Part shown: one piece after another, positions 51,901 to 56,948 of the stretch | Layout of the letters: the number at the start of each line of letters is the position of its first letter | Position numbering within the stretch: the stretch's first letter is position 1 | Source: Pedosphaera sp. | GTDB taxonomy: Bacteria > Verrucomicrobiota > Verrucomicrobiia > Limisphaerales > SIBH01 | Assembly (NCBI GenBank): GCA_031414955.1 | Contig: JANOQV010000132.1 | Coordinates: forward strand, 1 to 56,948 | DNA: 56,948 bases | Reading direction: 5' to 3' | Program-made: the position numbers

Positions 51901-54900
51901 GATCTCGGCCTCGACCAGGTGCTCATTTACAAGCTCGACGCGGCCAAGGGCACGCTCACGCCGAACAATCCTCCGTTTGCCACCCTGGCCCCCGGCTCGG
52001 GACCGCGTCACCTCGCGTTCCATCCCAACGGCAAGTTCGCCTACGTGATCAACGAAATGCTCTGCACCATGACGGCGTTCGCGTGGAACAGCAGGACGGG
52101 CGTGCTCAAGGAATTGCAAACCATCTCCACGCTGCCCGGCGAACGCCAGCGCGGCGACAGCACGGCGGAGGTTTATGTGCATCCCTCCGGCCAATTCGTT
52201 TACGGATCGAATCGCGGGCACAACAGCATCGTGGGCTACGCCTGTGACGCGAAGACTGGGCGGCTCACATTGATCGAGCACACCGAAACGCAAGGCAAGA
52301 CGCCGCGGCATTTCGCCATCGACCCGCCGGGGAAGTTTCTCCTCGCGGAGAATCAGGACAGCGGCACGGTGGTGGTTTTCAAAATCGATCCGAAGACCGG
52401 CAAACTCACCCCGACGGGCGAGAAGGTGGAAGTGCCTGCACCGGTCGCGGCCGTGTTCGTCCCGGTGAAGTGAGCGGAGCGCGGATCGCTGAGTCCGCGT
52501 GTTTTCCTGCTTCAGCCCCTTGAGACCTCGGCCGGAGCCGCGAGTCTCGCCATCGATCCATCATGCAGTTTGGGCAGCAAGAGCATCGCTGCGCCTGAGC
52601 CGATCAGGGCGAGGAACATGTCCCATTGCGTGTCCCATACGTCGCCTTGGGTGCCGAGGAATGCGCTCGCCCCTTCGCCCGTGAGCACGGCGGTCCACCA
52701 CTCGATTAGTTCGTAGAATGCGCTGAAGGCGAGACAGCAGGCGATGGACAACATCGCAACCGCGACACCGCGCAAGGCCAGTTTCCGCATGAGAAACTCC
52801 CGGACCAAAACGGCGGGAATGAAACCCTGCGCGACGTGGCCCAGCCGGTCGTAGTGATTGCGGGAGAGATGCAAGGCGTCGCGCACCCAGTCGCCGAGCG
52901 GAACCATGGCGTAGGTGTAATGACCGCCCACGGCAAGAATCAGCGAATGCACCGTGAGGAGAACGAGGCCCAGGTTCGAGAGCGGAAACTTCTTCCACGT
53001 CAGCGCGATGGCGATGCCGCCGATCCACACCGGCGCATTCTCCATCATCCAGGTGAAACGATCGGCCGAGGGCGACCAACCGAGCGCGATCTGCTCCCCC
53101 ACGACGAACAACGCGACGCACTTCAGAGTCGTGTTCACGCGAGTTGCTGGACAACGCCACGGATGATGGCCACGCCTTCCTCCGCTTGCGCGCGAGAGAG
53201 GTTCAGTGGCGGCAGCAGCCGCAACTTCTGGGTGCCGGAGGGAATGGTCAGCACGCCCGCTTCGTGCAGGCGACCCACGAACTGACTGGAGGCTGGCTTG
53301 TCACTCGCCGCGAAGGCCGGGATTTTTTCTTTCTCCGCCAATTCAATCCCGAGCATGAAGCCGAGGCCGCGCACGGCCGCGATGATGTGCGGGAATTCAT
53401 CGACCAGCCGCTGCAACTCGCCCTTCAGGAAATCACCGGTGTGGCGCGCGTTGTCCGCCAGCCGGTCACGCTCCACGACTTCAAATACTTTCAACGCCAC
53501 CGCGCAGGCCAGCGGCGTGCCGCCAAACGTCGTCCCGTGGGTCCCGGCGCCGAGCACGTCCGCATGCTGCTCTCTTACCCAGAAAGCTCCGATGGGAAAA
53601 CCGCCGCCGAGCGCCTTGGCCATCGAGACGGCGTCCGGCAGGAAGGCCGTTCCGCGCGCGCCGGCGCTCTCCAGTGTGCGTTGAAAGCTCTGGAATCGGC
53701 CGGTGCGGAAGTAGCCGCACTGCACCGCGTCGATCATGAGCAGCAGTTTGTGTTGGTCACACAGTTCGCGCAGCCCGAGCAGGAACTCCGGCGACGCGGG
53801 CGTGATGCCGCCTTCGCCCTGGATGCCTTCGATCAACACTGCGACCGTCGCGGGCGAGATGGCGTCGCGCACCGCGTCCAGATCGTTGTAGGGCACATGG
53901 CGAAAGCCGGGCGTCGCCGGGTCGAAGCCTTTCTTGATCTTTTCCTGGCCCGTGGCCGCGATGCTCGCGAGCGTGCGCCCGTGAAAGGAGTTGGTCGCGG
54001 TGAGAATTTCGAAGCGTCCCTCGTCGTGGCCGAACTTGCGCGCCAGTTTGTAGAGGCCCTCATTGGCCTCCGCGCCGCTGTTGCAGAAGAAGACCTTGCC
54101 GGGCGCGAGATGCTTCACGATCTGCTGCGCCAGCCGACCCTGCGGCTCGTGGTAATAAAGGTTCGAGATATGCACGAGTTGCTTCGACTGCTCAATGAGC
54201 GCGGCGGTGATTTCCGGATGAGCATGCCCGAGCGTGTTGACCGCAATGCCGCCGCCGAGATCGAGGTAACGCCGTCCGCGCACATCCCAGACATAGCTGC
54301 CTTCACCACGCGTGAAAGCGAGGTCGTAGCGCGCGTAAGTAGGCACGACGTAGCGCGTGAAGAGTTCCTTCACGGTCTCGAACTGGTTATGCACGATCGG
54401 CGGTGGTGCCGGGACGAGTTCTTTCATCGCGGATGTGAATAAAGCGAACGGCGCAGAAAACAAGAAACATTGCGAGCCGGGGCGCTCCGGAAAAGTTTTT
54501 CTAAAAATCTCCTTGGCAACTTTTTCGAGCGGACGTACGAACGTGCCGCTCTTTGAAAGAGTCCCGCGCGTGCGGGATTCAGTCGCAGTCCAACGTCAGG
54601 GAACCCGGTGAGAATCCGGGACGGTTGCGCCACTGTCAGGAGATACGAATTCCAACCGCGAGTCCGCTCGCGGTGAAAAGCCACTGGTTTGAAAGAATCG
54701 GGAAGGCCGGAGTGAGGTCAGGCTCCAAGTCAGGATACCGGTTGGGTTGTGCTCGTCGTGATTCGTTCGCTTTGCGGGCGAATCAACTTCTCCGTCAAAG
54801 AGAAGGATGAGGCCAGACCCGGATGCCTGTCGCATTCGGGATTCGTGATGATGCCTTCATTTCGTTTTGACGCGGGATGAAGGCTTTTGTTTTTCGCCCA

Positions 54901-56948
54901 CCGTGGCTGGAACAGCCGCCTTCTCCTTCGCCCTGGTCTCGCAGTGAACCGTGCCCGTGAACTCGTTTCGCGGGGACAAAAACTACAGATCAGTCACATG
55001 AAGAAAATCAGTTTAGTTCTGCTGGCCCTGGCCGGCTTCGTCCTCCACTCCCACGCCGCGACCAATTTCGCGGCGCGCGTCATCAGCTACAACCCAGGCC
55101 TGAACTTCGCCCAGGGCTACACCAACACCTCCGCCGTGCTCGGTGAGCCGTCGCGCGTGAACCCTTACACCGAGGCGGTCGATCCGTTCAATCCGCCTTA
55201 CGGCACCGACCAGATTCTCTCCATCGGCGAGGGCGGCTCGCTCGTGGTCAAAATGGACCGCCCCATCTACAACACGCCGCGCAAGCCCTTCGGCCTCGAC
55301 TTCATCATCTTCGGCAATGCCGGCTTCATCATCACCAATGAGTTCGATCTGAACACGTATGATTGGCTCGGCACGCCAGCCACGGACGGCTCGATGTTTG
55401 GAGCCAATGAAGGCACGACACTCGTCTCGGTCAGCGCGGATGGCCTCCATTTCGTGCCGTTGTCTTCGCCACTCCTGCCGACGGTGGACACGCTGTTCCC
55501 GACGGATGCGGCCGGAAGATTCGATGTGCCGGTGAATCCTGAGTTGACGGCGGCGATCTTTGCCGGAGCCACCCTGAAGCAGATGCGCTCGCTCTACGCC
55601 GGTTCGGCGGGCGGCGCGGGCTTCAACATCGGCTGGGCGCAATGGCAGTCCCGGCGGGTTTGGCTGCCCTACATCCGCTACATCCGCGTCGAAGTGTTGT
55701 CGGGCAAGGCGGAAATCGACGGGATTTCAGGCGTGGCCCGGACGGCGGCGAAGCCAAGGTATTGAACACCGCCGGCCCATGCGAACGGCATCGGGAATCA
55801 TCCACTTCGTCTTTCTGGTCGCCGCGTGCCTGCTGCGCGCGGCGACCATCGGCGAAGGCTTTGCCACGGACCCGCTGGCCCGCGGCTGGCGGACCTTCGG
55901 CGAGGCCACGCTGTTCCATTGGAACCCGACCAATCAGAATCTCGAAGTCACCTGGGATTCGTCGCGCACCAACAGTTACTTTCAACTGCCGCTCGGGACC
56001 ATTCTGTCGAAGAGCGATGACTTCTCACTGGCGTTTGATTTGCGCCTGAGGGACATCGCCGTGGGCGTGAACCCGGGCAAGCCGGATACGTTTGAGATCG
56101 CGATCGGCTTCCTCAACTCGGTGAACTCCACTAAAACGAACTACTTTCGCGGCATGGGGGTGAGCGCGGCTTATGGGGTGAAGAACACCATCGAGTTCGA
56201 TTACTTCCCGGCCACGGCGGTGATCAGCGCGACGTTTGCGCCGACGGTTATTTCGAGCAACAACGTCATCAAGTTCAGCGACAATCACCCACTCGTGATG
56301 ACGACGAACGATCTGTTCCACATCGCGATGGCTTACACCGCGAGCAATCAGGTTTTGAAGACGACGGTGACACGCAACGGCGCGCCGTACGGGTTGTCGC
56401 CGAGCAACACGATCCGGGATTTGTCGCTCGCCACGCACCCGGACTTCCGCGTGGACCGGCTGGCGGTGATGAACTACAGCGACGCCTTGCAGATTGGACC
56501 CACGCAGTTCTGGGGCTCGGTGCGGGCGCACGGCACGGTGGACAACTTCGCGGTCACGGTGCCCGATCCGCCGGTGGGGAATTTCACGAGCGCGAGATCA
56601 AACGCGATCTGGCGCGGCACATTCGTAAGCCGGACGAACTGGTTCTACTCTTGGGAGCGGACGCTGAACCTCGTCACCTGGACAACCGCCTCGCCCACGA
56701 ACGCCGGCACCGGCGGCGCAATGCAGTTGCTCGACACGAACGCGCTGACGGGCGGTGCGTTTTATCGCGTGAAAGCGCTCAAACCATGAGGAAGCAGGTG
56801 AACATGCCGGCTGGGTGCGCGGCGGTCGTGGGAAAAAGCGGCGCTGAAGCGACCGCACACCAAACGCATCGCGCGGCACGAGGGGGGTGGGTCTGCGCGC
56901 CAGCGTTTGGTGTGTGGACCCTTCAGCGCCGCGTTCGGCTCGCGGCGC

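What a model noticed while it worked through the whole genome (the two positions that open the first line are those of the whole stretch)
54563..56789. A secreted lectin-fold protein family that is almost always under a B12 riboswitch: candidate corrinoid-capture protein [...]
Two paralogous secreted proteins without any Pfam or NCBIfam family (g02173 on C132, 336 aa; g00662 on C39:19249-20310, 353 aa; 43% identical) each stand behind a cobalamin riboswitch, and in 39 of 40 related loci from other genomes the same is true. I read the family as the missing extracellular or periplasmic corrinoid-binding protein of Verrucomicrobiota, made when B12 is scarce to capture cobamides for uptake (a functional analogue of BtuG/BtuH of Bacteroides, on a concanavalin-A/legume-lectin fold). 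New would be a >1000-member B12-acquisition family and a new fold for binding corrinoids.
Evidence so far: rna.tsv: RF00174 at C132:54563-54760 (+, 69.6 bits) followed by g02172 (255 aa, no family) and g02173; RF00174 at C39:20520-20683 (-) followed directly by g00662. g00662 vs g02173: 42.8% identity over 325 residues, E 6e-77. No Pfam hit at E<=1, no NCBIfam hit at E<=0.01. 1036 homologues at E<=1e-10, none named, two size classes (~330-350 and ~560 aa), named sources nearly all Verrucomicrobia. Of 80 related loci fetched, 40 were scanned with Rfam: 39 have a Cobalamin riboswitch on the gene's strand 200-1500 nt upstream (19 of 20 and 20 of 20); the miss (L265) has none in 2.5 kb. AF2 model on a 34-sequence alignment: pLDDT 83, pTM 0.81, all-beta; Foldseek PDB best hits are legume lectins (4wv8 [...]
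(Added by a program. Inside this text positions count along the whole contig: contig position 1 is position 1 of the stretch shown here. "Call 12" and the like, gene names such as g00115 and contig names such as C1 are that model's own, and its searches are not shown. The text may have been shortened before it was handed on; [...] marks where a part breaks off. The agent that wrote the report below was given it as the finding of a first reader that could run no searches.)

Follow-up and report, generated by a model that had tools for sequence, protein, structure and literature searches.

The report
Pilin-linked B12-capture cassette replacing BtuB
A vitamin-B12-sensing RNA switch controls a relative of a known B12-binding protein, a lectin-shaped secreted protein and a pilin-like protein, and the sampled relatives of this bacterium carry either such a pilin-linked set or the classical B12 importer BtuB behind the switch but not both, which points to an undescribed route for taking up B12.

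Summary
Observation confirmed and extended. The riboswitch (54563-54760) precedes g02172 and g02173. In 151 genomes of the order, 89 of 105 matches to the g02173 family lie behind a full cobalamin riboswitch. g02173 is a signal peptide, an L-type-lectin-like domain and a C-terminal module shared with unrelated exported proteins. 26 genomes carry a TonB-dependent receptor behind the same kind of riboswitch, 117 carry a binder of the pilin-cassette type, and none carries both. Best reading: a pilin-linked cobamide capture cassette that stands in for BtuB. Direct corrinoid binding by g02173 is inferred only (about 55%); it may be an adaptor. The 'new fold' claim is weaker, since beta-jelly-roll B12 binders (DUF4465) are published, including verrucomicrobial ones. 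This scan noted the B12-pilin link before on other DNA, once for this same family; my word search of its notes found no mention of the exclusion with BtuB.

The parts
54563..54760 (+). Cobalamin riboswitch aptamer (RF00174); its loop GACGG at 54620-54624 can pair with the downstream hairpin loop
   Evidence: 69.6 bits; pairing inferred from sequence and conservation
54787..54813 (+). Conserved hairpin (P13-like) overlapping a likely antiterminator strand
   Evidence: motif in 68 of 74 riboswitch rows, window included; duplex with the terminator 5' arm -8.5 kcal/mol; the P13 label is recalled
54853..54894 (+). Intrinsic terminator (13-bp stem and T-tract): transcriptional OFF switch
   Evidence: matching terminator in 59 of the 68 rows that carry the hairpin
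54998..55765 (+). g02172: exported BtuH-type B12-binding domain with a short basic tail and no membrane anchor
   Evidence: profile hits 8BLW E 0.0078 and 7BIZ E 0.067; Foldseek 5e-7 and 2.6e-4; VIA Z 14.6 and 14.3 against next 9.2; signal peptide judged by eye
55779..56789 (+). g02173: signal peptide + L-type-lectin-like domain + C-terminal module; dedicated partner of the B12-linked prepilin
55842..56564 (+). ConA/L-type-lectin-like beta-sandwich domain (residues 22-262)
   Evidence: AF2 pLDDT 93; Z 15.3, rmsd 3.5, 205 aligned, 8% identity to peanut lectin 1ciw; profile hit on the lectin metal loop, E 0.0096
56565..56786 (+). About 70-aa C-terminal module shared with unrelated exported proteins; probable sorting or surface-display signal (inferred)
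   Evidence: 24 ORFs of the genome match its profile at E<=1e-3
56835..56948 (.). Palindromic repeat at which the contig breaks. The end of contig C173 overlaps it (74 nt, 90.5%) and leads straight into the B12-type prepilin gene C173:57475-58338 (-), probably the third gene of the cassette
   Evidence: 49 BLAST rows for the window end; best identity of the long matches, overlap not exact; read mapping did not bridge the break

Best explanation
The window holds the front of a B12-repressed cobamide capture cassette: riboswitch, optional BtuH-like binder (g02172), lectin-fold protein with a C-terminal sorting module (g02173), then an H-X9-DG/DUF1559 prepilin. Step 1 (inferred from conserved RNA anatomy): when cobalamin is low the antiterminator forms and the cassette is transcribed; bound cobalamin favours the terminator. 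Step 2 (homology shown, binding inferred): g02172 captures cobamide as Bacteroides BtuH does. Step 3 (inferred): g02173 is displayed at the cell envelope and takes cobamide in the loops at the lectin-equivalent ligand end, either directly or from g02172, and passes it to its dedicated prepilin. Step 4 (inferred from gene displacement): the prepilin, as part of a type II secretion/type IV pilus-like apparatus with a secretin, brings the vitamin across the outer membrane without BtuB/TonB. A BtuF-like protein and DUF6580 (C39 operon) handle the periplasm and inner membrane.
For: Riboswitch linkage 89 of 105 and 76 of 80. Remote homologues in another part of the phylum keep it: 3 of 3 have the riboswitch, and the 2 whose ORFs I listed have the same order riboswitch-lectin-pilin. 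g02172 is BtuH-like by profile and by fold, and the Asn matching BtuH2 Asn399, a B12-phosphate contact (PMC8941943), is invariant in 44 sequences (register inferred). BtuH-like and lectin domains are fused in 21 of 151 proteins. The pilin follows in 70 of 80 loci. The pilin subfamily occurs in 96 genomes, 95 of them among the 99 lectin-family genomes. 35 of the 99 have no BtuH-like match, so there the lectin protein and the pilin are the only recognised candidates for capture. Displacement: 26 genomes in 16 families have riboswitch then TonB receptor, 117 have a cassette-type binder, overlap 0. These riboswitches form one side of a 100/100 branch away from the nrd/metE type, share the downstream hairpin (19 of 26 receptor loci, 69 of 80 lectin loci, 0 of 16 nrd/metE loci), and the receptor-linked ones are not one group in any of 200 bootstrap trees. 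The genome has MetH, no CobQ over the cut-off and no CobS, and secretins.
Against: No binding, expression or transport data. The lectin domain has no detectable similarity to any B12 binder. In 3 genomes an intact lectin gene stands without a riboswitch while the riboswitch drives BtuH-like + pilin elsewhere; a fourth is the same but keeps a riboswitch fragment. This fits a structural role better. One genome pairs the same pilin with a different exported domain. Lectin-family genomes still encode other TonB receptors: 6 barrels in this genome, and 10 such genomes have TIGR01779 matches at E 1e-41 to 1e-49 away from listed riboswitches. Kin are not independent, so the Fisher p of 1.6e-22 overstates. 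The riboswitch tree is poorly resolved: starred branches force only 2 changes and the bootstrap had not settled. The link from the window to the C173 pilin is not exact.
Confidence: 0.5

Rival explanations
1. Same pilin-linked uptake system, but g02173 is a non-binding adaptor or surface platform. The corrinoid is bound by the pilin head and, where present, by the BtuH-like protein.
For: One-to-one presence with the pilin subfamily even when the lectin gene has left the riboswitch operon. The pilin head has many invariant polar and aromatic residues. About 20 BtuH-like genes next to the lectin gene end in a short tail without a membrane segment and may need a carrier (counted by eye). An earlier unchecked scan note reports a lone riboswitch-pilin unit. 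BtuK2 and BtuL lie in B12 operons yet do not bind B12 (PMC12751083).
Against: Other cassettes fill the slot before the pilin with recognised BtuH-type binders. Conserved lectin-domain residues (R124, F143-P144, Y233, D235, S247) fall in loops that correspond by topology to the lectin ligand site (inferred, not checked in 3D).
Confidence: 0.25
2. The cassette only concentrates or stores cobamides at the surface or in the periplasm. Outer-membrane passage uses an unlinked, unregulated TonB receptor, and the pilin-like protein is a membrane-anchored binder, not part of a translocator.
For: TonB receptors exist in cassette genomes. No secretin or assembly ATPase gene was seen among the recurrent neighbours. 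BtuJ1 is described as a reservoir (title in listing).
Against: A reservoir should add to BtuB, as BtuH does in Bacteroides (more than 80% of btuH genes share an operon with btuB, PMC8941943), not exclude it (0 overlap). All 12 TIGR01779 matches with E<1e-59 are in genomes without the lectin family.
Confidence: 0.15
3. g02173 is a true lectin. It binds a glycan, either to tether the capture complex to the cell's own surface polysaccharide or to attach the cell to B12 producers.
For: Top fold hits are legume lectins. The profile aligns to the lectin VEFDT metal loop, with the Glu invariant in 57 of 57.
Against: In the alignment the positions matching peanut lectin Asp132 and His137 are not kept and Asn127 is mostly Asp (their roles as metal and sugar ligands are recalled). 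Z scores fall smoothly across unrelated ConA-like folds at 6-13% identity.
Confidence: 0.07
4. The genes encode a B12-independent substitute function unrelated to uptake.
For: In this order B12 riboswitches do control nrdAB-like and metE-like genes (names from my reading of the sequences).
Against: Those riboswitches form a separate group without the hairpin motif. The cassette holds BtuH-like and, in some loci, BtuF-like genes, and it swaps with TonB receptors.
Confidence: 0.03

Closest known systems
BtuH2 (BT1956, PDB 7BIZ) and the H domain of BtuG1/BtuGH (PDB 8BLW), Bacteroides thetaiotaomicron
   Same: g02172 has the same fold (Z 14.6, rmsd 3.3, 153 aligned, 22% identity), the same motif order, riboswitch control, and accessory, patchy occurrence.
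   Different: No PKD or propeller domains and no lipoprotein anchor seen. Homologues end in PEP-CTERM-like tails, bare basic tails, or are fused to the lectin domain. It travels with a prepilin, not with btuB.
DUF4465 / BtuJ (PF14717; PMC13398666, PMC12751083)
   Same: Exported beta-sandwich proteins under B12 riboswitches that bind through loops; includes verrucomicrobial members from Coraliomargarita and Haloferula.
   Different: No PF14717 hit in 57 family members at E<=1; the GTPAYF loop motif is absent from the consensus. DUF4465 genes often sit with TonB receptors.
BtuB/TonB with BtuG (E. coli and Bacteroides outer-membrane B12 uptake)
   Same: Same regulatory slot: in 26 sampled genomes the related riboswitch drives a 620-690 aa TonB receptor.
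   Different: The cassette has no barrel; a prepilin and an exported binder take its place.
Legume (L-type) lectins / ConA-like superfamily
   Same: Fold, and a trace of sequence similarity at the metal loop.
   Different: 8-13% identity; metal and sugar ligands only partly kept; bacterial C-terminal module; B12 regulation.
DUF1559 (PF07596) / H-X9-DG prepilin-type proteins
   Same: The partner gene has the N-methyl motif, a DUF1559 hit (C39 copy) and H-X9-DG.
   Different: A distinct, mostly single-copy subfamily tied to B12. None of the 4 papers listed for 'DUF1559' showed a function for it in title or abstract start.

Membership tests
Cobalamin riboswitch RF00174 | Covariance-model score above 31.5 bits | tested here: met
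   69.6 bits, full length
Cobalamin riboswitch RF00174 | Expression platform upstream of the genes | tested here: met
   hairpin in 68 of 74 rows, terminator in 59 of those 68; window terminator 54853-54894
BtuH B12-binding domain (g02172) | Globular BtuH fold | tested here: met
   7BIZ and 8BLW rank first in two structure searches, well above CBM32-like folds
BtuH B12-binding domain (g02172) | Nucleotide-loop contact Asn399 | tested here: met
   GN motif aligned and invariant; residue number inferred from the construct limits
BtuH B12-binding domain (g02172) | Ring contacts His476, Tyr510, Trp511, Trp577 and the Ca/Na sites | tested here: inconclusive
   these regions were not in the printed alignments; model residues 90-116 have pLDDT<50
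BtuH B12-binding domain (g02172) | Measured B12 binding | not testable with these tools
   needs purified protein
DUF4465/BtuJ (g02173) | PF14717 match and GTPAYF loop motif | tested here: not met
   0 of 57 members at E<=1; consensus lacks the motif; PF14717 not found in the genome
DUF4465/BtuJ (g02173) | Augmented jelly-roll topology | tested here: inconclusive
   not among the listed rows; an unlisted family is not excluded
Legume (L-type) lectin (g02173) | ConA-like beta-sandwich | tested here: met
   Z 15.3, rmsd 3.5, 205 aligned; E 0.0096 by profile
Legume (L-type) lectin (g02173) | Complete Mn/Ca site and Asp-Gly-Asn sugar triad (recalled) | tested here: not met
   Glu kept (57 of 57); next Asp is D or N (52 of 57); Asn position mostly Asp; second Asp and His not kept in the alignment
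Legume (L-type) lectin (g02173) | Carbohydrate binding | not testable with these tools
   needs a glycan array
DUF1559/H-X9-DG prepilin (partner gene) | N-methyl leader, DUF1559 hit, H-X9-DG | tested here: met
   C39 copy: PF07963 and PF07596 over cut-off. C173 copy shows both motifs in its sequence but, cut at the mature Phe, gave no Pfam hit at E<=1e-5
BtuB-type TonB uptake operon | TonB barrel behind the riboswitch | tested here: not met
   none of the 6 barrels lies on C132, C39 or C173; 0 of 117 cassette genomes

The most novel reading that the evidence does not exclude
H-X9-DG/DUF1559 prepilins with their exported binder partners form a TonB-independent outer-membrane import system. Each pilin subfamily and its partner specify one nutrient, and a type II secretion/type IV pilus-like machine pulls it in. 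This cassette is the B12 version, interchangeable with BtuB behind the same riboswitch, and g02173 is its corrinoid receptor on an L-type lectin fold.
Probability: 0.35. Interest if true: 0.92.

Novelty: new variant of a known kind. Interest (0 to 1): 0.77.

Why it matters
About three quarters of the sampled genomes of this order (117 of 151) appear to acquire B12 without a riboswitch-linked BtuB. The swap between BtuB and binder-plus-prepilin behind one riboswitch gives a ligand and a direct test to DUF1559/H-X9-DG pilins, a large family for which my searches showed no assigned function (42 ORFs of this genome match a profile of such pilins). It would add a route for micronutrient uptake across the outer membrane, extend BtuH-type binders beyond the gut groups described, and, if g02173 binds, add the L-type lectin fold to the corrinoid-binding scaffolds.

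Tried and rejected
Single-sequence Pfam, NCBIfam and PDB searches for both proteins gave nothing; only profiles and folds found relatives. Complex prediction of pilin head plus lectin domain: no answer, score 0.00 in both runs, controls not folded; it is no evidence either way. A g02172-g02173 complex was not predicted (one job only). ESM Atlas for the lectin domain: unnamed verrucomicrobial clusters first, then DUF6645, DUF6772 and PelX_N; leads only. Atlas for the domain that replaces it in G226: DUF4430 at 0.81, a lead only; PDB search blank. No BtuJ/DUF4465 structure among the listed rows of the fold searches. The pilin profile against PDB gave only an implausible RCC1-repeat hit. Sequencing runs: no RNA holder listed. 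Contigs of 4 DNA runs matched the window but none bridged the repeat at its end. No sigma-70-like promoter found. My first kissing-loop pattern cut off the pairing base and gave a weak 14 against 7.3 shuffled; the corrected count shows GACG with CGTC as the commonest pair, with too little variation to call covariation. My early note that the 560-aa class is a tandem duplication was overturned. Paper searches listed nothing on this family or on riboswitch-controlled pilins; I saw those listings only, read no supplements, and most subscription journals are outside the library.
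Full report
Observation. The window has one Rfam match, a full cobalamin riboswitch at 54563-54760; the genome has one more, on C39. 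Behind the first lie g02172 (54998-55765) and g02173 (55779-56789); behind the second lies g00662, 43% identical to g02173. Neither window protein has a Pfam or NCBIfam match at E<=5. Contigs from independent runs reproduce the window sequence. Downstream of the aptamer are a conserved hairpin (68 of 74 riboswitch rows, window included) and a terminator (59 of those 68). The hairpin overlaps a strand that can pair with the terminator's 5' arm, so I infer a transcriptional OFF switch.

Linkage. The g02173 domain occurs in 99 of 151 genomes of the order; record titles of related loci point to Limisphaerales/Pedosphaera-like Verrucomicrobiota. It occurs in 0 of 150 or, with a profile, 3 of 150 genomes of a phylum-wide sample. 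140 of the 151 genomes have a riboswitch match, mostly one. Of 105 family matches, 83 have a listed riboswitch 262-2186 nt upstream. I fetched 20 of the 22 misses: 6 more have a full riboswitch, 5 a fragment, 4 end at a contig edge and 5 have none; the 2 not fetched are contig-edge fragments. In 80 loci from the same genome collection, so not independent, 76 have the riboswitch. The three remote homologues also have it.

g02172 is a BtuH-type domain. A profile of 44 homologues hits only 8BLW (E 0.0078) and 7BIZ (E 0.067) below E 1. The model (pLDDT 81) ranks the same two entries first by Foldseek and VIA-align (Z 14.6 and 14.3, next 9.2). BtuH2 binds B12 through this domain, with Asn399 contacting the phosphate (PMC8941943; passages and the structure section read); the matching Asn is invariant. 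The other contacts could not be mapped.

g02173 has three parts: a signal peptide (judged by eye), a 241-residue domain, and a 70-residue tail matched by 24 ORFs of the genome. The domain folds confidently (pLDDT 93) into a ConA-like sandwich. Peanut lectin is the top hit (Z 15.3, rmsd 3.5, 205 aligned), but many unrelated ConA-like folds follow closely. A diverse profile reaches peanut lectin at its metal loop (E 0.0096). The Glu is invariant, but by recalled lectin numbering the second Asp and the His are lost and the sugar-binding Asn is mostly Asp. It is a remote lectin-fold protein without a complete lectin site. It is not DUF4465 by profile or motif. 578 clusters at 50% identity match at E<=1e-3. 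Among 151 proteins scanned, 21 are BtuH-like + lectin fusions and 7 have two lectin domains.

The missed partner. An N-methyl/DUF1559/H-X9-DG prepilin follows the lectin gene in 70 of 80 loci; most misses end at a contig edge. On C39 the operon runs g00662, Dph6-like PF01902, DUF6580, BtuF-like PF01497, prepilin. The window's contig breaks in a repeat 46 nt after g02173; contig C173 overlaps that end imperfectly and begins with the same kind of pilin, as in the closest related loci. This pilin subfamily is in 96 of 151 genomes, 95 of which have the lectin family. The BtuH-like gene is accessory: 64 of the 99 lectin-family genomes have it and 35 do not.

Displacement of BtuB. I fetched the DNA behind nearly all listed riboswitches that were not upstream of the family. 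In 26 genomes from 16 families it is a TonB-dependent receptor (two are partial). In 16 genomes without the family there is a longer BtuH-like protein; where the locus was read (15) it is followed by a different prepilin. One genome has another exported domain with the same pilin, and one has a short BtuH-like gene with a PEP-CTERM-like tail at a contig edge. Other riboswitches drive nrdAB-like or metE-like genes. So 117 genomes have a cassette-type binder, 26 have riboswitch plus receptor, none has both, and 8 have neither recognisably (6 without a riboswitch match, 2 cut by contig ends). Four of the ten unlisted riboswitch rows were not located directly. Uptake-type riboswitches group apart from the nrd/metE type with full support and share the downstream hairpin; receptor-linked ones need 13 changes on the best tree, though starred branches force only 2. 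Four receptor loci share the glmM/cdaA/folP neighbourhood (names from my reading) with 18 lectin loci, which suggests replacement in place. In Bacteroides, BtuH adds to BtuB rather than replacing it.

Mechanism. The genome uses B12 (MetH), shows no late synthesis genes with two queries (95.9% complete), and has secretins. I read the cassette as a capture and import module in which g02173 is the pilin's dedicated exported partner and probably handles the corrinoid. Shown: riboswitch, gene order, homologies, co-occurrence and exclusion. Inferred: binding by any of the proteins, hand-over, and pilus-driven passage of the outer membrane. My odds: cassette serves cobamide acquisition about 0.9; it replaces BtuB functionally about 0.7; g02173 binds corrinoid directly about 0.55.

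Against. In three genomes the lectin gene is intact without a riboswitch, and in a fourth it keeps only a fragment, while the riboswitch drives BtuH-like plus pilin elsewhere. Cassette genomes keep other TonB receptors. Proteins in B12 operons need not bind B12 (BtuK2, BtuL; PMC12751083, passages). Genomes are related and mostly incomplete assemblies.

Known systems and novelty. Published surface B12 binders are BtuG, BtuH, BtuK and BtuJ/DUF4465 (PMC13616437, passages; PMC13398666, abstract, Results and Discussion). The last is a beta-jelly-roll with verrucomicrobial members, so a beta-sandwich corrinoid binder is not unprecedented. A pilin-containing locus is linked to mucin use in Akkermansia but is read there as attachment (PMC13174399, passages). 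My eight paper searches listed nothing on this family or on a pilin that replaces BtuB. Earlier unchecked notes of this scan report the riboswitch-pilin pairing in other genomes and this same operon once. I looked at them after finding the pilin link and the exclusion myself; a word search for the exclusion returned nothing.

Verdict. The feature is real and highly conserved. I file it as a new variant of B12-scavenging systems, with a 0.35 chance that it is the first ligand-assigned case of a new pilin-based import route.

Noticed in passing
window 56565-56786; also window 44622-45086 and the ends of many exported proteins: A 70-aa C-terminal module ending in a basic-aromatic strand recurs on unrelated exported proteins (24 ORFs in the genome) and alternates with PEP-CTERM-like tails on B12-cassette proteins; a candidate sorting signal with no Pfam or NCBIfam match in these proteins.
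   Followed up: partly
L007:5918-10311 (G000:C39, minus strand): Second B12 operon: g00662, Dph6-like ATPase PF01902, DUF6580 membrane protein, BtuF-like protein, prepilin. DUF6580 is a candidate inner-membrane cobamide transporter; PF01902 genes recur in both cassette-type and receptor-type B12 loci.
   Followed up: partly
L088:6577-7290, L115:1182-1886, L099:6550-7797, N-termini of the long BtuH-like proteins: A further unnamed exported domain of about 200 aa under B12 riboswitches, alone with PEP-CTERM, with the C-terminal module, or fused to BtuH-like domains; weak Atlas lead to DUF4430. Another candidate corrinoid binder.
   Followed up: partly
L088-L122 versus L008-L087: Two B12-linked pilin subfamilies: one goes with the lectin or short BtuH-like partners, the other with long BtuH-like proteins, suggesting partner-specific pairing.
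   Followed up: partly
L141-L144, L132: Only 42-78 nt riboswitch-like fragments upstream of lectin genes, below Rfam cut-offs; possibly short variant cobalamin riboswitches. L139 and L140 match RF01482 instead of RF00174.
   Followed up: no
window 56835-56948: Palindromic repeat with dozens of copies in the genome, often at contig ends.
   Followed up: partly
L094, L102, L126, L127, L148-L157, L162, L172, L173: A separate class of cobalamin riboswitch controls ribonucleotide-reductase-like and metE-like genes in this order (names from my reading, not scanned against a family library).
   Followed up: no
window 53135-54463 (-): Divergent acetylornithine aminotransferase gene upstream of the riboswitch; not part of the cassette.
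   Followed up: no
L152 (G290:C147:1-4900): A high-scoring cobalamin riboswitch followed by genes that matched none of my profiles.
   Followed up: no
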